Source of the DNA: a virus
Lineage: Duplodnaviria; Heunggongvirae; Uroviricota; Caudoviricetes
IMG/VR virus record: IMGVR_UViG_2663763477_000009
DNA length: 42,753 bases
Direction: 5' to 3' (one strand)
Of the stretch, positions 18,481 through 42,753 are shown piece by piece. Position numbers and translations under genes: made by a program. Position 1 is the first letter of the stretch; each line of letters begins with the position of its first letter. Below the pieces are notes generated by a model that saw only the letters and a program-made list of their open reading frames with translations, had not been told where the DNA came from and made no database searches.

Positions 18481-19956
18481 TTAGGAGCGCCAAAAAAAAC
18501 CTGAAAACAATATAATAACAGGATAAATTTCAAGGCGACCAAGAATCATAGCTATGCACATTAAATATTTTGCAATGTCATTAAGCACTCCGAATGACGA
18601 TGCAGTAGCCCCAAAACCTAATCCCATATTATTAATACATGCAGCCACTGTTGCAAATGATGTAAGAAAATCATATCCCATACCATTTAACACCAGTATA
18701 AAAAACACCGTGAAGAGAGTATAAAGAAAAAAGAAACTCCATACAGACCTCATTACACGATCTGTAACTATCTTCCCTCCTACATTTACACTCAACAACG
18801 CTCTGGGATGAGAAAGCTGATTTATCTCGTGTTTGCTTTGTTTGAAAAGTATAAGAAATCGAAGTGACTTAATTCCACCACAGGTTGAACCTATACATCC
18901 CCCAAAGAAACTTGACAACAGCAAAAACACTATCGTGTGCGTGGGCCAGTTTGCATAATCCTGCGTAGCTAAACCATTATCAGTGAGCATGGAGCTGGCA
19001 AGAAAAAACGAATGAATAAAACTTCCATGCAAGTCATACATACCTATATGCCAGACCTGGAAAGAGGTAACAATGATCACCCCTAAGGCTATTAACAGAA
19101 AGAAACGAAGTTCAATATCTCTGATTAAAGGTTTTATCGTTTTTCTGCTAATAACAATATACCAAAGAGTGAAGTTGAAAGCCGATAGCAGGGAAAAAGA
19201 ACCAGCCACCAGCTCAACCAAATAGTTATTAAAATATCCGATACTCTCGCTATGAGTTGAGAAACCACCAAGCGAAACTGTGGAAATCCCGTGACAAATA
19301 GCATCAAACAAAGGCATTCCTGCAAGTCTATAACAGACAATACAAGCAATACCTAATAAAGAATAAGTTATCCACAGTGTCCGTGACGTATCGGCCAGGC
19401 GGGGAGTGAGTTTGTCATCCTTAAATGGCCCCGGCATTTCTGACTGATAAAGCTTTGCACCACCAATACCCAATAATGGCAATACTGCAACCGCCAGAAC
19501 AATAACTCCTAAACCACCTATAAAATTTAACTGTGACCGATAGTACAAATATGCCCGAGGTAATGAACTAACATCATCAATTACAGTTGCTCCTGTTGTT
19601 GTTATTCCAGAAACCCCTTCAAACAGAGCATCAATGAACGTTAAATTAAGTTCTGAGTCAATCCATAAAGGGAATGCACTAATAACAGAAAACAAAATCC
19701 AAAACATTACAATTATAATAAACCCATCACGGGTACGTAATTGAATGCCAGATTTCTTAGTTGTATACCACGCTCCGCCACCAATGCAAAAAAATATAAC
19801 GAAAGTTATAAAGAAAACGAACAGGCTTTTTTCTTTATAAAACAATGCTACAACCATTGGTGGCAACATTGAAAGACTATAGAGCCAAACCAGGAACCCA
19901 CACATATGAGTAACAACTCTTACATGAGATGTATTCATATCTAAATATTCTTTCAA
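18481..19956 (-). CDS. trkG: Trk-family potassium uptake membrane protein TrkG (copy 1, full length)
   Basis: 491-aa polytopic membrane protein that I recognise as the prophage-borne TrkH paralogue TrkG. Confidence 0.9.
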   Translation of the reverse strand: MKEYLDMNTSHVRVVTHMCGFLVWLYSLSMLPPMVVALFYKEKSLFVFFITFVIFFCIGGGAWYTTKKSGIQLRTRDGFIIIVMFWILFSVISAFPLWIDSELNLTFIDALFEGVSGITTTGATVIDDVSSLPRAYLYYRSQLNFIGGLGVIVLAVAVLPLLGIGGAKLYQSEMPGPFKDDKLTPRLADTSRTLWITYSLLGIACIVCYRLAGMPLFDAICHGISTVSLGGFSTHSESIGYFNNYLVELVAGSFSLLSAFNFTLWYIVISRKTIKPLIRDIELRFFLLIALGVIIVTSFQVWHIGMYDLHGSFIHSFFLASSMLTDNGLATQDYANWPTHTIVFLLLSSFFGGCIGSTCGGIKSLRFLILFKQSKHEINQLSHPRALLSVNVGGKIVTDRVMRSVWSFFFLYTLFTVFFILVLNGMGYDFLTSFATVAACINNMGLGFGATASSFGVLNDIAKYLMCIAMILGRLEIYPVIILFSGFFWRS

Positions 19957-20075
19957 TTATAACCACCTTGCTGCAATATTATGATTATACTGTATAAAAT
20001 TTAACTCCTCTTAGATCTTACTTCACTGTTCCTTATGAAACAATCATCAAAATGAATCATATTGTAGTTAAGATT

Positions 20076-20552
20076 TTACTTTAAACACTGCTCGGTTATG
20101 TATTGCTGAGCACCTTCAAGTTGGGCCTGCATCATTACCAGTCGTTCCCGGAGGGTGAAATAATCCCGTTCAGCGGTGTCTGCCAGTCGGGGGCTGGTTG
20201 CATTATCCACGCCGGAGGCGGTGGTGGCTTCACGCACTGACTGACAGACTGCTTTGATGTGCAACCGACGACGACCAGCGGCAACATCATCACGCAGAGC
20301 ATCATTTTCAGCTTTCGCATCAGCTAACTCCTTCGTGTATTTTGCATCGAGCGCAGCAACATCACGCTGACGCATCTGCATGTCAGTAATTGCCGCGTTC
20401 GCCAGCTTCAGTTCTCTGGCATTTTTGTCGCGCTGGGCTTTGTAGGTAATGGCGTTATCACGGTAATGATTAACAGCCCATGACAGGCAGACGATGATGC
20501 AGATAACCAGAGCGGAGATAATCGCGGTGACTCTGCTCATTGCTGCCCCCAC
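20076..20552 (-). CDS. rzpR: Spanin inner-membrane subunit Rz (copy 1; without an adjacent holin/endolysin)
   Basis: 158 aa with an N-terminal TM segment and coiled-coil periplasmic domain; Rz1 is embedded in the +1 frame. Confidence 0.85.
20135..20320 (-). CDS. rzoR: Spanin outer-membrane lipoprotein Rz1 (copy 1), embedded in Rz
   Basis: 61 aa with lipobox VVGC and a Pro-rich tail ([14 protein letters not shown]), entirely inside the Rz frame. Confidence 0.8.
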
Positions 20553-20583
20553 AAACAGACTTCACGCTCAATCTCACGACGAG

Positions 20584-22053
20584 TCATGAGACCTTTCCAT
20601 TGCTTACCGCCAGCATATGTCCAGCGACGTAGCTGACAAGAATCATAGCTATGCACATTAAATATTTTGCAATGTCATTAAGCACTCCGAATGACGATGC
20701 AGTAGCCCCAAAACCTAATCCCATATTATTAATACATGCAGCCACTGTTGCAAATGATGTAAGAAAATCATATCCCATACCATTTAACACCAGTATAAAA
20801 AACACCGTGAAGAGAGTATAAAGAAAAAAGAAACTCCATACAGACCTCATTACACGATCTGTAACTATCTTCCCTCCTACATTTACACTCAACAACGCTC
20901 TGGGATGAGAAAGCTGATTTATCTCGTGTTTGCTTTGTTTGAAAAGTATAAGAAATCGAAGTGACTTAATTCCACCACAGGTTGAACCTATACATCCCCC
21001 AAAGAAACTTGACAACAGCAAAAACACTATCGTGTGCGTGGGCCAGTTTGCATAATCCTGCGTAGCTAAACCATTATCAGTGAGCATGGAGCTGGCAAGA
21101 AAAAACGAATGAATAAAACTTCCATGCAAGTCATACATACCTATATGCCAGACCTGGAAAGAGGTAACAATGATCACCCCTAAGGCTATTAACAGAAAGA
21201 AACGAAGTTCAATATCTCTGATTAAAGGTTTTATCGTTTTTCTGCTAATAACAATATACCAAAGAGTGAAGTTGAAAGCCGATAGCAGGGAAAAAGAACC
21301 AGCCACCAGCTCAACCAAATAGTTATTAAAATATCCGATACTCTCGCTATGAGTTGAGAAACCACCAAGCGAAACTGTGGAAATCCCGTGACAAATAGCA
21401 TCAAACAAAGGCATTCCTGCAAGTCTATAACAGACAATACAAGCAATACCTAATAAAGAATAAGTTATCCACAGTGTCCGTGACGTATCGGCCAGGCGGG
21501 GAGTGAGTTTGTCATCCTTAAATGGCCCCGGCATTTCTGACTGATAAAGCTTTGCACCACCAATACCCAATAATGGCAATACTGCAACCGCCAGAACAAT
21601 AACTCCTAAACCACCTATAAAATTTAACTGTGACCGATAGTACAAATATGCCCGAGGTAATGAACTAACATCATCAATTACAGTTGCTCCTGTTGTTGTT
21701 ATTCCAGAAACCCCTTCAAACAGAGCATCAATGAACGTTAAATTAAGTTCTGAGTCAATCCATAAAGGGAATGCACTAATAACAGAAAACAAAATCCAAA
21801 ACATTACAATTATAATAAACCCATCACGGGTACGTAATTGAATGCCAGATTTCTTAGTTGTATACCACGCTCCGCCACCAATGCAAAAAAATATAACGAA
21901 AGTTATAAAGAAAACGAACAGGCTTTTTTCTTTATAAAACAATGCTACAACCATTGGTGGCAACATTGAAAGACTATAGAGCCAAACCAGGAACCCACAC
22001 ATATGAGTAACAACTCTTACATGAGATGTATTCATATCTAAATATTCTTTCAA
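20584..22053 (-). CDS. trkG: TrkG copy 2 with a replaced C-terminus (last 19 aa exchanged for 17 unrelated aa at the duplication junction)
   Basis: Identical to copy 1 until ...CIAMIL, then diverges where the unit joins the endolysin 3' fragment. Confidence 0.8.
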
Positions 22054-22172
22054 TTATAACCACCTTGCTGCAATATTATGATTATACTGTATAAAATTTA
22101 ACTCCTCTTAGATCTTACTTCACTGTTCCTTATGAAACAATCATCAAAATGAATCATATTGTAGTTAAGATT

Positions 22173-22649
22173 TTACTTTAAACACTGCTCGGTTATGTAT
22201 TGCTGAGCACCTTCAAGTTGGGCCTGCATCATTACCAGTCGTTCCCGGAGGGTGAAATAATCCCGTTCAGCGGTGTCTGCCAGTCGGGGGGAGGCTGCAT
22301 TATCCACGCCGGAGGCGGTGGTGGCTTCACGCACTGACTGACAGACTGCTTTGATGTGCAACCGACGACGACCAGCGGCAACATCATCACGCAGAGCATC
22401 ATTTTCAGCTTTCGCATCAGCTAACTCCTTCGTGTATTTTGCATCGAGCGCAGCAACATCACGCTGACGCATCTGCATGTCAGTAATTGCCGCGTTCGCC
22501 AGCTTCAGTTCTCTGGCATTTTTGTCGCGCTGGGCTTTGTAGGTAATGGCGTTATCACGGTAATGATTAACAGCCCATGACAGGCAGACGATGATGCAGA
22601 TAACCAGAGCGGAGATAATCGCGGTTACTCTGTTCATTGCTGACCCCAC
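22173..22649 (-). CDS. Spanin inner-membrane subunit Rz (copy 2, part of the lysis cassette)
   Basis: 158 aa; differs from copy 1 at three residues; its start overlaps the endolysin stop. Confidence 0.85.
22232..22417 (-). CDS. Spanin outer-membrane lipoprotein Rz1 (copy 2), embedded in Rz
   Basis: 61-aa lipoprotein; one Ala-to-Pro difference from copy 1. Confidence 0.8.
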
Positions 22650-23131
22650 AAACAGATTTCACGCTCAATCTCACGACGAGTCATGAGACCTTTCCATTGC
22701 TTACCGCCAGCATATGTCCAGCGACGTAGCTGATCACATGCGCCTTTGATATCGCCCTGGTTTATTTTGCGAAGAAGCGTCGATGTTCTGAAATTGCCAG
22801 CACCCACGTTGTAAACGAATGAGTAAAGAGCGCCGCGCGTTGTTTCCGGTATATCGACTTTGATGTACGGGTTAATTTGTCTGGCGACAGTGGCAAGGTC
22901 TTTATTCAAGAGTGTTTTGCATTCTGCTTTGGTATACGTTTTACCGAGCATGATGTCTTTTCCTGTATGCCCGTGACATACAGTCCATACACCAACAATA
23001 TCTTTGTATGGTATGTAGCTGACACCTTCCAGACCATCGTTACCACTTGGGCCAGTGATTAACACTGATGCTATAGCAATTGCTCCGCCACCAATAGCAG
23101 CAGCAACGACTTTTCGTAATGATGGAGGCAT
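22634..23131 (-). CDS. SAR endolysin (phage-21 R-type lysozyme)
   Basis: 165 aa with an N-terminal Gly/Ala-rich signal-anchor-release segment ([18 protein letters not shown]) followed by a lysozyme domain. Confidence 0.85.
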
Positions 23132-37367: not shown

Positions 37368-39968
37368 ATGAGCACAAAACCACTCTTCCTGTTACGGAAA
37401 GCGAAAAAATCATCCGGTGAACCTGACGTCGTCCTGTGGGCAAGCAACGATTTTGAATCGACCTGTGCCACTCTGGACTACCTGATCGTTAAGTCAGGTA
37501 AAAAACTGAGCAGCTATTTTAAAGCTGTTGCCACGAATTTTCCTGTCGTTAATGACCTGCCCGCTGAAGGTGAGATCGATTTTACCTGGAGTGAACGCTA
37601 TCAACTCAGCAAAGACTCCATGACATGGGAACTAAAACCGGGAGCAGCACCAGACAACGCTCACTATCAAGGCAATACCAACGTCAACGGCGAAGACATG
37701 ACTGAGATTGAGGAGAATATGCTACTCCCAATTTCTGGCCAGGAACTGCCCATTCGTTGGCTTGCTCAACACGGCAGCGAAAAACCGGTAACGCACGTTT
37801 CACGCGACGGACTCCAGGCATTACACATTGCTCGGGCTGAAGAACTACCGGCTGTTACTGCCCTGGCTGTTTCCCACAAAACCAGCCTGCTCGACCCGCT
37901 GGAAATTCGCGAACTCCACAAACTGGTTCGTGACACTGACAAAGTTTTCCCTAATCCTGGTAATTCAAACCTGGGACTGATAACTGCTTTTTTCGAAGCA
38001 TACCTGAACGCTGACTACACCGATCGAGGACTGCTGACAAAAGAGTGGATGAAGGGTAATCGTGTTTCACACATCACTCGCACGGCTTCCGGTGCTAATG
38101 CTGGCGGCGGAAACCTCACCGATCGCGGCGAAGGTTTCGTACACGATCTGACGTCACTGGCGCGGGACGTAGCCACTGGCGTACTGGCCCGTTCAATGGA
38201 TCTGGACATCTATAACCTTCATCCGGCACACGCTAAACGCATTGAGGAAATTATCGCTGAAAATAAACCGCCCTTTTCTGTTTTCCGCGACAAATTCATC
38301 ACCATGCCTGGCGGGCTGGATTATTCCCGCGCCATCGTGGTTGCGTCCGTAAAAGAAGCACCAATTGGGATCGAGGTCATCCCCGCGCACGTCACTGAAT
38401 ATCTGAACAAAGTACTGACTGAAACCGATCATGCCAACCCTGATCCGGAAATCGTGGATATTGCCTGCGGTCGCTCCTCTGCCCCGATGCCGCAGCGAGT
38501 AACAGAAGAAGGAAAACAGGATGATGAAGAAAAACCGCAACCATCTGGAACAACGGCAGTTGAACAGGGAGAGGCTGAAACAATGGAACCGGACGCAACT
38601 GAACATCATCAGGACACGCAGCCGCTGGATGCTCAGTCACAGGTAAATTCTGTTGATGCGAAATATCAGGAACTGCGGGCAGAACTCCATGAAGCCCGGA
38701 AAAACATTCCATCAAAAAATCCTGTCGATGCCGATAAATTGCTTGCTGCATCACGTGGTGAATTTGTTGACGGAATTAGCGACCCGAACGATCCGAAATG
38801 GGTAAAGGGGATCCAGACTCGCGATTGTGTGTACCAGAACCAGCCAGAAACGGAAAAAACCAGCCCGGATATGAATCAACCTGAGCCAGTAGTGCAACAG
38901 GAACCGGAAATAGCCTGCAATGCCTGCGGCCAGACTGGCGGGGATAACTGCCCTGACTGTGGTGCGGTGATGGGCGACGCAACATACCAGGAAACATTCG
39001 ATGAAGAGAGTCAGGTTGAAGCTAAGGAAAATGATCCGGAGGAAATGGAAGGCGCTGAACATCCGCACAATGAGAATGCTGGCAGCGATCCGCATCGCGA
39101 TTGCAGTGATGAAACTGGCGAAGTCGCAGATCCCGTAATCGTAGAAGACATAGAGCCAGGTATTTATTACGGAATTTCGAATGAGAATTACCACGCGGGT
39201 CCCGGTGTCAGTAAGTCTCAGCTCGATGACATTGCTGATACTCCGGCACTGTATTTGTGGCGTAAAAATGCCCCCGTGGACACCACAAAGACAAAAACGC
39301 TCGATTTAGGAACCGCTTTCCACTGCCGGGTACTTGAGCCGGAAGAATTCAGTAACCGCTTTATCGTAGCACCTGAATTTAACCGCCGGACAAACTCCGG
39401 AAAAGAAGAAGAGAAAGCGTTTCTGAGGGAATGCGCAAGCACAGGAAAAACGGTTATCACTGCCGAAGAAGGCCGGAAAATTGAACTCATGTATCAGAGC
39501 GTTATGGCTTTGCCGCTGGGGCAATGGCTTGTTGAAAGCGCCGGACACGCTGAATCATCAATTTACTGGGAAGATCCTGAAACAGCAATTTTGTGTCGGT
39601 GCCGTCCGGACAAAATTATCCCTGAATTTCACTGGATCATGGACGTGAAAACTACGGCGGATATTCAACGATTCAAAACCGCTTATTACGACTACCGCTA
39701 TCACGTTCAGGATGCATTCTACAGTGACGGTTATGAAGCACAGTTTGGAGTGCAGCCAACTTTCGTTTTTCTGGTTGCCAGCACAACTATTGAATGCGGA
39801 CGTTATCCGGTTGAAATTTTCATGATGGGCGAAGAAGCAAAACTGGCAGGTCAGCTGGAATATCACCGCAATCTGCGAACCCTGGCTGACTGCCTCAATA
39901 CCGATGAATGGCCAGCTATTAAGACGTTATCACTGCCCCGCTGGGCTAAGGAATATGCAAATGACTAA
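37368..39968 (+). CDS. recE: Exodeoxyribonuclease VIII (RecE), full length
   Basis: 866 aa with an acidic/Pro-rich linker and a C-terminal nuclease domain; its stop overlaps the recT start. Confidence 0.9.
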
Positions 39969-40770
39969 GCAACCACCAATCGCAAAAGCCGATCTGCAAA
40001 AAACTCAGGGAAACCGTGCACCAGCAGCAATTAAAAATAACGACGTGATTAGTTTTATTAACCAGCCATCAATGAAAGAGCAACTGGCAGCAGCTCTTCC
40101 ACGCCATATGACGGCTGAACGTATGATCCGTATCGCCACCACAGAAATTCGTAAAGTTCCGGCGTTAGGAAACTGTGACACTATGAGTTTTGTCAGTGCA
40201 ATCGTACAGTGTTCACAGCTCGGACTTGAGCCCGGTAGCGCCCTCGGTCATGCATATTTACTGCCTTTTGGTAATAAAAACGAAAAGAGCGGTAAAAAAA
40301 ACGTTCAGCTAATCATTGGCTATCGCGGCATGATTGATCTGGCTCGCCGTTCAGGTCAAATCGCCAGCCTGTCAGCCCGTGTTGTCCGTGAAGGTGACGA
40401 GTTTAATTTCGAATTTGGCCTTGATGAAAAGTTAATACACCGCCCAGGAGAAAACGAAGATGCCCCTGTTACCCACGTCTATGCTGTCGCAAGACTGAAA
40501 GACGGAGGTACTCAGTTTGAAGTTATGACGCGCAAACAGATTGAGCTGGTGCGCAGCCAGAGTAAAGCTGGTAATAACGGGCCGTGGGTAACTCACTGGG
40601 AAGAAATGGCAAAGAAAACGGCTATTCGTCGCCTGTTCAAATATCTGCCCGTATCAATTGAGATCCAGCGTGCAGTATCAATGGATGAAAAGGAACCACT
40701 GACAATCGATCCTGCAGATTCCTCTGTATTAACCGGGGAATACAGTGTAATCGATAATTCAGAGGAATAA
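39961..40770 (+). CDS. recT: Single-strand annealing protein RecT
   Basis: 269 aa from [14 protein letters not shown]...; recognised as RecT; the track ORF begins at an upstream alternative start. Confidence 0.9.
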
Positions 40771-40825
40771 TTCAGCCTGGCGGTGTAATGCACCGCCAAC
40801 TTGAAATATTTTTATGAGAAAAATT

Positions 40826-40975
40826 ATGAGATATGACAATGTTAAACCATGTCCATTTTGTGGTTGTCCATCAGTAACGGTGAAAGCCATTTCAGGATAT
40901 TACCGAGCGAAGTGTAACGGATGCGAATCCCGAACCGGTTATGGTGGAAGTGAAAAAGAAGCACTCGAACGATGA
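40826..40975 (+). CDS. ralR: Restriction-alleviation protein RalR/Lar-like, apparently ending at a premature TGA
   Basis: Reads MRYDNVKPCPFCGCPSVTVKAISGYYRAKCNGCESRTGYGGSEKEALER then TGA; reading through that codon gives 14 more codons (NKRTTGNNNGGVHV) to a TAA, i.e. a 64-codon frame. Confidence 0.5.
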   Translation: MRYDNVKPCPFCGCPSVTVKAISGYYRAKCNGCESRTGYGGSEKEALER

Positions 40976-41012
40976 AATAAACGAACCACTGGAAATAATA
41001 ATGGAGGTGTTC

Positions 41013-41201
41013 ATGTATAAAATTACCGCCACTATTGAAAAGGAAGGTGGCACTCCTACTAACTGGACAAGATATTCAAAATCTAAACTAACGAAATCAG
41101 AATGCGAAAAAATGCTCTCAGGTAAAAAAGAAGCAGGCGTTTCCAGAGAGCAGAAAGTAAAACTGATAAATTTTAATTGCGAGAAACTTCAGTCCTCGTG
41201 A
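41013..41201 (+). CDS. ydaC: YdaC-like small protein
   Basis: GGAGG RBS 5 nt before the ATG (MYKITATIEKEGGTPTNWTRYSK...); lies between ralR and xisR. Confidence 0.6.
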   Translation: MYKITATIEKEGGTPTNWTRYSKSKLTKSECEKMLSGKKEAGVSREQKVKLINFNCEKLQSS

Positions 41202-41517: not shown

Positions 41518-42753
41518 ATGTCTAAATTACCAACAGGTGTCGAGATTCGAGGTAAATACATTCGCATCTGGTTCATGTTTCGAGGAAAACGATGTCGGGA
41601 AACATTGAAAGGCTGGGAGGTTACTAACAGTAACATTAAAAAAGCCGGGAATTTAAGAGCGTTGATAGTTCATGAAATCAATTCCGGTGAGTTTGAGTAT
41701 TTAAGACGTTTTCCCCAGTCCAGCACTGGGGCAAAAATGGTGACAACGAGGGTCATAAAAACGTTCGGGGAGCTTTGTGATATCTGGACAAAAATTAAAG
41801 AAACAGAGTTAACAACAAACACAATGAAGAAAACGAAATCACAATTAAAAACACTCAGGATAATAATTTGTGAGAGTACTCCGATATCGCATATTCGTTA
41901 TAGCGATATCTTAAACTACCGGAATGAACTGCTGCATGGAGAAACGCTTTACCTGGATAATCCAAGATCCAACAAAAAAGGAAGAACCGTGCGCACAGTT
42001 GATAACTATATCGCCCTGCTCTGTTCGTTGTTACGTTTTGCGTATCAGTCGGGATTTATATCAACCAAACCATTTGAAGGAGTAAAGAAATTACAGAGAA
42101 ACAGAATAAAGCCTGACCCGTTATCTAAAACAGAATTCAATGCATTAATGGAAAGTGAAAAAGGACAGAGCCAGAACTTGTGGAAATTTGCCGTATACTC
42201 CGGGCTTCGTCACGGGGAACTGGCTGCTCTGGCGTGGGAGGATGTGGATTTCGAGAAGGGAGTTGTGAATGTCAGAAGAAACCTGACGATACTGGATATG
42301 TTCGGTCCCCCAAAAACAAATGCGGGGATCCGGACGGTAACACTACTGCAGCCTGCTCTTGAAGCACTGAAGGAGCAATACAAACTGACCGGGCATCATC
42401 GCAAAAGCGAAATCACTTTTTATCATCGGGAGTACGGCAGAACCGAAAAGCAAAAACTGCATTTTGTTTTCATGCCCAGAGTGTGTAACGGAAAACAGAA
42501 ACCTTATTACTCGGTAAGCAGTTTGGGTGCGAGATGGAATGCAGCAGTAAAACGTGCTGGTATTCGCCGCCGTAATCCGTACCATACGCGGCATACTTTT
42601 GCCTGCTGGCTGTTGACGGCAGGAGCGAACCCGGCGTTTATAGCCAGCCAGATGGGGCATGAAACTGCGCAGATGGTGTATGAAATTTACGGTATGTGGA
42701 TTGATGACATGAACGACGAACAGGTAGCCATGTTGAATGCGCGGTTATCGTAG
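41518..42753 (+). CDS. intR: Tyrosine integrase IntR
   Basis: 411 aa; C-terminal catalytic region with ...HTRHTFACWLL... and an H-x-x-R/Y-containing tail; terminal gene of the prophage arm. Confidence 0.9.
   Translation: MSKLPTGVEIRGKYIRIWFMFRGKRCRETLKGWEVTNSNIKKAGNLRALIVHEINSGEFEYLRRFPQSSTGAKMVTTRVIKTFGELCDIWTKIKETELTTNTMKKTKSQLKTLRIIICESTPISHIRYSDILNYRNELLHGETLYLDNPRSNKKGRTVRTVDNYIALLCSLLRFAYQSGFISTKPFEGVKKLQRNRIKPDPLSKTEFNALMESEKGQSQNLWKFAVYSGLRHGELAALAWEDVDFEKGVVNVRRNLTILDMFGPPKTNAGIRTVTLLQPALEALKEQYKLTGHHRKSEITFYHREYGRTEKQKLHFVFMPRVCNGKQKPYYSVSSLGARWNAAVKRAGIRRRNPYHTRHTFACWLLTAGANPAFIASQMGHETAQMVYEIYGMWIDDMNDEQVAMLNARLS

What the first reader, a model, noticed from the sequence alone, without database searches (positions are those of the whole stretch)
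40814..41020. ralR appears to be truncated by an in-frame TGA
The Lar/RalR-like frame (zinc-ribbon-like CPFCGC...CNGC) reaches TGA after codon 49, but the same frame continues for exactly 14 more codons to a TAA. The combined 64-codon frame is the size I recall for K-12 RalR, consistent with a TGG-to-TGA nonsense change that removes the C-terminal 15 residues. RalR is both a restriction-alleviation factor and the toxin of a type I toxin-antitoxin pair, so truncation could reflect selection against toxin activity. An in-frame ATG 12 nt upstream (40814) is an alternative start.
Basis: partly seen in the sequence, partly recalled or inferred. Interest (0 to 1): 0.45.

Follow-up and report, generated by a model that had tools for sequence, protein, structure and literature searches.

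The report
Common nonsense allele of ralR toxin
The Rac-prophage toxin gene ralR in this window is cut short by a real, inherited TGG-to-TGA stop mutation that is shared by about 310 sequenced E. coli genomes and most likely inactivates the toxin, while its antitoxin RNA stays intact. This is an ordinary gene-decay polymorphism in a known system.

Summary
ralR (ATG 40826) reaches TGA at 40973-40975 after 49 codons, and the frame runs 14 more codons to TAA at 41018-41020. K-12 has TGG (Trp50) at that codon. Within ralR the only other difference from K-12 is a synonymous CGA/AGA at Arg49.

It is not a sequencing error. The exact CGA-TGA allele occurs in 310 of 5426 complete E. coli genomes, including O157:H7, O55:H7 and O111:H8. 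TGG alleles occur in about 1,600 genomes, and AGA-TGA occurs in none. In five sampled carriers the surrounding Rac haplotype was nearly clonal. This fits a single origin.

The truncation removes W50, N51 and R53. These residues are invariant in 76 of 76 diverse Lar-family proteins, none of which ends before position 55. Published mutagenesis shows that changes at residues 49, 51 and 52 reduce toxicity, and that a K52 mutant has no DNase activity. The 49-residue product is therefore most likely inactive. That step is inferred, not assayed.

The RalA antitoxin sRNA (41197-41019, minus strand) and its 16-nt target in ralR (40948-40963) are intact.

RefSeq annotates the short ORF as an ordinary RalR (WP_001443846.1) because it still passes the NCBIfam cutoff.

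There is no evidence that the truncation was selected for rather than hitch-hiking on the haplotype. Interest is low.

The parts
40826..40975 (+). Truncated ralR ORF: 49 codons plus the premature TGA. It encodes the CxxC...CxxC zinc ribbon and the first 7 residues of the C-terminal helix.
   Evidence: Pfam PF14354 scores 39 bits, covering profile positions 2-52 of 58. NCBIfam NF007260 (RalR) scores 126.9 bits, covering positions 1-49 of 64. Identical ORFs are annotated as WP_001443846.1.
40973..40975 (+). Premature stop TGA, where K-12 and all other alleles have TGG (Trp50). The single-base difference is at 40975 (A versus G). The next base is A.
40976..41020 (+). The stranded 3' end of ralR: 14 codons (NKRTTGNNNGGVHV) plus TAA, identical to K-12. 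It contains the GGAGG ribosome-binding site (41002-41006) and the ATG (41014) of the downstream DUF1187 gene.
40814..40816 (+). Upstream in-frame ATG, a possible alternative start that would add MRKI.
   Evidence: It is conserved in frame in K-12, in the L003/L004 alleles (whose annotated start is TTG) and in the L005/L006 copies in a different prophage background.
40948..40963 (+). The 16-nt site in ralR mRNA that pairs with RalA (AAGTGAAAAAGAAGCA). It is intact and lies 10 nt upstream of the premature stop.
   Evidence: One search finds 14 of 16 matches, including an 11-nt exact run, as a direct repeat with 41120-41135. The mechanism comes from PMC4041452.
41019..41197 (-). RalA antitoxin sRNA gene, full length and identical to K-12.
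   Evidence: Rfam RF02694 scores 225.1 bits against a gathering score of 170, covering model positions 1-179 of 179. There are no differences from K-12 in this range.
41120..41135 (-). The 16-nt segment of RalA that is complementary to ralR mRNA.
   Evidence: PMC4041452.
41014..41201 (+). ydaC/rcbA-type DUF1187 ORF (62 aa), antisense to RalA. Its stop, TGA at 41199-41201, is AGA in K-12, which extends the K-12 protein to 69 aa.
   Evidence: Pfam PF06688 scores 132 bits. The SNP is shown. The 62-aa form is WP_001302840.1.

Best explanation
This is a natural nonsense allele of the Rac-prophage gene ralR (also called lar). A single G-to-A change turned Trp50 (TGG) into TGA.

Translation therefore stops inside the C-terminal helix. 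The product is a 49-residue zinc-ribbon fragment that lacks the family-invariant W-N-x-R motif and residues 51-52, which are needed for toxicity and DNase activity. The toxin and restriction-alleviation function is therefore most probably lost.

The RalA antitoxin sRNA gene and its 16-nt target remain intact, so the locus is now an antitoxin with a dead toxin.

The mutation arose once, on a CGA(Arg49) background. It is carried on a nearly clonal recE-recT-ralR-xis-int Rac haplotype that has spread into several E. coli lineages, including O157:H7, O55:H7 and O111:H8.

Shown here:
- the mutation;
- its reality and frequency;
- the loss of invariant residues;
- the integrity of RalA.

Inferred, not shown:
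- loss of activity of the 49-residue product;
- neutral decay or hitch-hiking, rather than selection, as the reason for its frequency.
For: The mutation and its distribution:
- The alignment with K-12 shows TGA versus TGG as the only non-synonymous difference.
- Six further alleles keep TGG.
- Allele-specific 33-nt searches of 5426 complete genomes found CGA-TGA in 310, CGA-TGG in 126, AGA-TGG in 1509 and AGA-TGA in 0.
- Five sampled TGA carriers from different serotypes differ from the window at only 1-5 of 2433 positions. K-12 differs by 2.3%.

Loss of conserved and functionally needed residues:
- Pfam Lar_restr_allev drops from 53.5 bits (profile positions 2-58 of 58) to 39 bits (2-52 of 58).
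- Among 76 single-domain family representatives, W50, N51 and R53 are present in 76 of 76, as conserved as the four cysteines. None ends before position 55.
- The AlphaFold model has strands at 17-22, 25-30 and 36-39 and a helix at 43-58, so the stop falls inside the helix.
- Guo et al. 2014 (PMC4041452) report that changes at residues 14, 37, 39, 49, 51 and 52 reduce toxicity and that a purified K52 mutant does not cut DNA.

Antitoxin intact:
- RalA is full length at 225 bits and the 16-nt pairing site is present.
Against: - The activity of the 49-residue fragment has never been assayed. It keeps the complete zinc ribbon and could retain some binding function.
- The stop is UGA followed by A. 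From my own knowledge, normal tRNA-Trp can misread this context at a low rate, which would rebuild exactly the wild-type protein. Some full-length RalR may therefore still be made.
- RefSeq treats the ORF as an intact gene.
- The structure model has only moderate confidence (mean pLDDT 70, five-sequence alignment).
- In my samples I did not find the immediate TGG parent on the same recET haplotype. The three CGA-TGG loci I fetched carry a different recombinase module.
Confidence: 0.85

Rival explanations
1. Sequencing or assembly error: the true base at 40975 is G and the gene is intact.
For: None specific. It is a single-base difference.
Against: The identical 33-nt context with TGA occurs in 310 independently assembled complete genomes. 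It also occurs in three prophage records deposited as phage genomes.
Confidence: 0.01
2. Leaky stop: UGA-A is occasionally read by tRNA-Trp, so the allele makes mostly the 49-residue fragment plus a small amount of authentic full-length RalR. This would be a throttled toxin rather than a dead one.
For: - The stop is UGA with A at the next position.
- Near-cognate decoding by tRNA-Trp would restore the ancestral residue (established knowledge of UGA read-through in E. coli, from memory).
- The 14 downstream codons and the RalA antitoxin are intact.
Against: - There is no stimulatory or SECIS-like structure downstream. The 71-nt region folds worse than shuffled controls (-4 kcal/mol, z = +1.8).
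- Intact downstream codons are uninformative, because the whole haplotype differs by 0.2% or less among carriers. That stretch is also constrained by the ribosome-binding site and start codon of the next gene.
- Basal read-through is normally about 1% or less.
Confidence: 0.07
3. The 49-residue form is a functional short isoform. For example, it might still alleviate restriction or act as a dominant-negative partner, and be kept by selection because it is non-toxic.
For: - The allele is frequent, at about 16% of ralR-bearing complete genomes.
- It keeps the whole zinc ribbon.
- It still passes the NCBIfam RalR and Lar cutoffs (126.9 versus 113 bits; 40.3 versus 39.6 bits).
Against: - No family member among 76 diverse representatives ends before position 55, and W50, N51 and R53 are invariant.
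- Single substitutions at residues 51 and 52 already reduce toxicity, and the purified K52 mutant lacks DNase activity.
- The frequency is explained by one nearly clonal haplotype shared across lineages, not by recurrent origin. AGA-TGA occurs in no genome.
Confidence: 0.05

Closest known systems
RalR/RalA type I toxin-antitoxin system of the E. coli K-12 Rac prophage (Guo et al. 2014, PMC4041452). The same gene was earlier named lar (King and Murray 1995, as cited there).
   Same: - It has the same locus and gene order: recE-recT-ralR-ydaC/ralA-xisR-intR.
- The first 49 codons encode the same protein as K-12.
- The RalA sRNA sequence and the 16-nt pairing site are identical to K-12.
   Different: - Codon 50 is TGA instead of TGG, so residues 50-64 are not translated.
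- Arg49 is CGA rather than AGA.
- The T-run in the 5' leader has five T rather than six.
- The overlapping DUF1187 ORF stops 7 codons earlier than K-12 rcbA.
Lar family restriction alleviation proteins (Pfam PF14354, TIGR03655)
   Same: It has the CPFCG...C..C zinc-ribbon core, and its scores are above both gathering cutoffs.
   Different: It lacks the last six profile positions, including the invariant W-N-x-R motif.
Other disrupted ralR alleles in E. coli
   Same: They show the same gene decaying in other genomes:
- a frameshifted ralR flagged as a pseudogene in O169:H41;
- a frameshifted tail, P0005;
- RalR-DUF1187 fusions, P0012 and P0015.
   Different: Those are indels, or deletions between the 16-nt repeats, and they appear to be rare. 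This one is a point nonsense mutation at high frequency, and annotation does not flag it.

Membership tests
RalR equivalog (NCBIfam NF007260) | Whole-protein score above the curated cutoff of 113 bits | tested here: met
   The score is 126.9 bits, but the match covers only profile positions 1-49 of 64. The repaired 64-residue sequence scores 166 bits.
RalR equivalog (NCBIfam NF007260) | Full-length 64-residue product | tested here: not met
   TGA at codon 50.
Lar family (Pfam PF14354 / TIGR03655) | Four-cysteine zinc ribbon (CPFCG ... CxxC) | tested here: met
   C9, C12, C30 and C33 are present. Each is invariant in 76 of 76 family representatives.
Lar family (Pfam PF14354 / TIGR03655) | C-terminal W-N-x-R motif on the helix after the ribbon | tested here: not met
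   W50, N51 and R53 are invariant in 76 of 76 representatives. In the window they lie beyond the stop codon. The Pfam match ends at profile position 52 of 58.
RalR/RalA type I toxin-antitoxin system | RalA sRNA gene antisense to ydaC | tested here: met
   Rfam RF02694 at 41197-41019 on the minus strand scores 225.1 bits against a gathering score of 170, full length.
RalR/RalA type I toxin-antitoxin system | 16-nt complementarity between RalA and the ralR coding region | tested here: met
   40948-40963 matches 41120-41135 at 14 of 16 positions with an 11-nt exact run. This agrees with the description in PMC4041452.
RalR/RalA type I toxin-antitoxin system | Toxic protein with DNase activity; residues 51 and 52 are required | tested here: not met
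   Residues 51 and 52 are not encoded before the stop. Their requirement is reported in PMC4041452. The activity of the fragment itself cannot be tested with these tools.

The most novel reading that the evidence does not exclude
The UGA-A stop may be a leaky valve rather than a null mutation. Rare decoding by tRNA-Trp would rebuild authentic RalR at a few per cent or less of normal output. This widespread Rac haplotype would then keep a heavily attenuated toxin or anti-restriction function together with an intact RalA antitoxin. Alternatively, the retained RalA may now serve another regulatory role on its own.
Probability: 0.07. Interest if true: 0.4.

Novelty: already known. Interest (0 to 1): 0.1.

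Why it matters
The finding matters mainly for annotation and for interpreting strains.

- **Annotation.** Hundreds of RefSeq genomes, including the O157:H7 and O55:H7 genomes sampled here, list a 49-residue "RalR toxin" (WP_001443846.1). It lacks residues that the family and published mutagenesis indicate are essential. It should probably be treated as a pseudogene, or at least not counted as an active type I toxin or as a Lar anti-restriction function.
- **Toxin-antitoxin decay.** The locus is a clean natural example of the toxin being lost first while the RNA antitoxin persists.
- **New biology.** It does not open any new biology.

Tried and rejected
- **Inverted repeat for the RalA pairing site.** I looked for the 16-nt ralR/RalA complementarity as an inverted repeat and found none. 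It is a direct repeat on the plus strand, because RalA is transcribed from the minus strand.
- **Effect of the SNPs on RalA pairing.** I checked whether either ralR SNP falls inside the RalA pairing site. Neither does: the SNPs are at 40970 and 40975, and the site is 40948-40963.
- **Selenocysteine or structured read-through.** Rejected. There is no hairpin downstream of the UGA.
- **Solved structures.** There is no relative by sequence and no significant fold match. The best Foldseek E-value is 0.2; Elf1/ELOF1-type zinc ribbons reach TM about 0.6. The structural argument therefore rests on a moderate-confidence model only.
- **Literature.** I found no paper discussing this truncation. The King and Murray 1995 lar paper is not in the held library.
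- **Immediate TGG parent haplotype.** The three CGA-TGG loci I fetched sit in Rac variants with a different recombinase gene, so the direct ancestor was not identified.
- **Phage records.** The three phage records carrying the allele come from a study of prophages found in clinical isolates. They do not prove that the element is an active phage.
- **First Pfam call.** It failed because of wrong frame coordinates. I repeated it with explicit sequences.

Full report
**The observation**

The window's last 5 kb is the integrase end of a Rac-type prophage. The gene order on the plus strand is:
- recE (37368-39968, 866 aa);
- recT (39961-40770, the 810-nt gene as annotated in relatives; the mechanical ORF listed starts earlier, at 39904);
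- a short Lar/RalR ORF;
- a DUF1187 ORF;
- xisR;
- intR (41518-42753).

The ralR frame starts at ATG 40826 and encodes MRYDNVKPCPFCGCPSVTVKAISGYYRAKCNGCESRTGYGGSEKEALER. It stops at TGA 40973-40975. The same frame continues as NKRTTGNNNGGVHV to TAA at 41018-41020. An in-frame ATG lies at 40814.

**Comparison with K-12 and other alleles**

A nucleotide alignment with a K-12 derivative shows the two 195-nt genes differ at only two positions. One is 40970 (CGA versus AGA, both arginine). The other is 40975 (TGA versus TGG).

Outside the gene there are two more differences. The window has five T rather than six in the leader. The overlapping DUF1187 gene ends at TGA 41199-41201, where K-12 has AGA; this extends K-12 rcbA from 62 to 69 residues.

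All other alleles I extracted keep TGG at codon 50 and the 64-codon length. They were two 92%-identical Rac alleles and two copies in a prophage with a different recombinase. One of the Rac alleles, from O169:H41, carries an unrelated frameshift. Homologues from Salmonella and Citrobacter all contain R-W-N-(K/R)-R.

**Is the TGA real, and how common is it?**

I used 33-nt queries centred on the SNP. The 28-nt exact word that megablast requires must then include both variable positions, which makes the searches allele-specific. In 5426 complete E. coli genomes the counts were:

| Allele (codons 49-50) | Genomes |
|---|---|
| CGA-TGA | 310 |
| CGA-TGG | 126 |
| AGA-TGG | 1509 |
| AGA-TGA | 0 |

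In all, 1915 genomes have a ralR-like sequence. The TGA allele is therefore a genuine polymorphism in about 16% of carriers.

Hosts include O157:H7, O55:H7 and O111:H8, plus assorted clinical and environmental isolates. Five sampled carriers differ from the window at only 1-5 of 2433 positions across recT-ralR-xis-int. K-12 differs by 2.3%. A sixth sampled carrier has a frameshifted recT, so position-by-position comparison with it was not valid.

The mutation therefore arose once and travels on one nearly clonal Rac haplotype found in distant lineages. I did not find the immediate TGG parent. The three CGA-TGG loci I sampled carry a different recombinase module.

The window itself is closest to Rac prophages of non-O157 strains such as NCTC10444 (99.9% identity).

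**What the truncation removes**

- Pfam Lar_restr_allev matches the repaired protein over profile positions 2-58 of 58 (53.5 bits). It matches the window's product only over 2-52 (39 bits).
- A profile search of 1.84 billion representative proteins returned 3968 family members. I aligned the 75 single-domain members of 75 residues or fewer, taken from the best 150, together with a 64-residue E. coli RalR as reference. W50, N51 and R53 are present in 76 of 76, as invariant as the four zinc-binding cysteines. No sequence ends before reference position 55.
- An AlphaFold model (mean pLDDT 70) predicts three strands followed by a helix at residues 43-58. The stop therefore cuts the helix after seven residues.
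- Guo et al. 2014 (PMC4041452) found by random mutagenesis that changes at residues 14, 37, 39, 49, 51 and 52 reduce RalR toxicity. They also found that a purified mutant at residue 52 does not cleave DNA. Replacing residues 43-46 also abolished toxicity.

Taken together, the 49-residue fragment is most likely inactive as a toxin and, by extension, as a Lar-type anti-restriction protein. This last step is inference. No assay of the fragment exists.

**The antitoxin half**

Rfam finds a full-length RalA sRNA on the minus strand at 41197-41019 (225 bits against a gathering score of 170). Its sequence is identical to K-12.

The 16-nt pairing site in ralR mRNA is at 40948-40963. It matches 41120-41135 at 14 of 16 positions with an 11-nt exact run, as described in the paper. 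The site lies just upstream of the premature stop, and the SNPs do not touch it. The locus is therefore an intact antitoxin next to a truncated toxin.

**Alternatives considered**

- Sequencing error is excluded by the 310 genomes.
- Selenocysteine or structure-driven read-through is unlikely. The RNA downstream of the UGA is unstructured (z = +1.8 against shuffles).
- Low-level misreading of UGA-A by tRNA-Trp would regenerate the wild-type protein. This cannot be excluded, but nothing here supports it.
- A functional short isoform is hard to reconcile with the invariant W-N-x-R motif and the mutagenesis.
- Whether the allele's frequency reflects selection against the toxin cannot be decided from these data. 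The single origin and clonal haplotype are what hitch-hiking would produce. Other rare disruptions of ralR exist: a frameshift, a frameshifted tail, and RalR-DUF1187 fusions. They show that the gene decays repeatedly, but I could not quantify this against neighbouring genes.

**Annotation status and novelty**

RefSeq annotates the short ORF as a normal [quoted passage not shown] (WP_001443846.1). The reason is that it still scores 126.9 bits against the 113-bit cutoff of NF007260.

The allele is thus already in public databases many times over, in a well-described system, although it is not flagged as truncated. I found no paper that discusses it. It is an ordinary loss-of-function polymorphism, useful as an annotation caveat and of low scientific surprise.

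Noticed in passing
window 18540-22733: There is a tandem duplication with a 2097-nt period and 7 mismatches between the copies. Each copy holds a trkG-like ORF (491 and 489 aa, with different C-terminal ends at the junction) and a 158-aa Rz-like ORF, all on the minus strand. The closest genomes span about 2.1 kb less over this stretch, so they appear to have a single copy.
   Followed up: partly
window 41199-41201: The DUF1187 (ydaC/rcbA) ORF stops at TGA, where K-12 has AGA; this gives 62 versus 69 residues. The 62-residue form (WP_001302840.1) is the one annotated in most non-K-12 loci I sampled. The SNP at 41199 lies 2 nt upstream of the RalA 5' end (41197) and just downstream of a TACAAT -10-like hexamer on the minus strand (41212-41207). 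It could therefore affect RalA initiation as well.
   Followed up: partly
window 40814-40828: The upstream in-frame ATG is conserved in every ralR allele group examined. This includes alleles whose annotated start is TTG (L003, L004) and the copy in a different prophage background, where it lies 15 nt upstream and still in frame (L005, L006). The true start may be this upstream ATG. Neither candidate has a strong Shine-Dalgarno sequence.
   Followed up: partly
window 40779-40797: A 7-bp GC-rich stem (GGCGGTG ... CACCGCC) sits between recT and ralR. It is conserved, with a different loop, in the ralR copies that follow an unrelated RecT-family gene (L005, L006), although the flanking sequence differs. 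The pattern scan did not call it a terminator, because the T-run is about 10 nt away. Its function is unknown.
   Followed up: no
proteins P0012 and P0015 (other genomes); corresponding to window 40948-40963 and 41120-41135: Some database proteins are RalR-DUF1187 fusions. The P0012 junction lies exactly at the 16-nt direct repeat that mediates RalA pairing. This suggests that the repeat also promotes deletions that remove the end of ralR and most of ralA.
   Followed up: no
L005 (O157:H7 strain 7.1_Anguil); records H1 and H6: Some genomes carry more than one ralR-like place. H1 and H6 each have two, and each carries the TGA allele at one of them. An intact 64-codon ralR (CGA-TGG) occurs in O157:H7 strain 7.1_Anguil next to a different RecT-family recombinase (L005). 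A truncated Rac copy therefore does not necessarily mean that a cell lacks RalR.
   Followed up: partly
phage records ON470614.1, ON470616.1 and ON470590.1 (L014): Three roughly 38-kb records deposited as Escherichia phages contain the identical 451 nt, including the TGA allele. They derive from a survey of prophages in carbapenemase-producing clinical isolates, not from demonstrated induction.
   Followed up: partly
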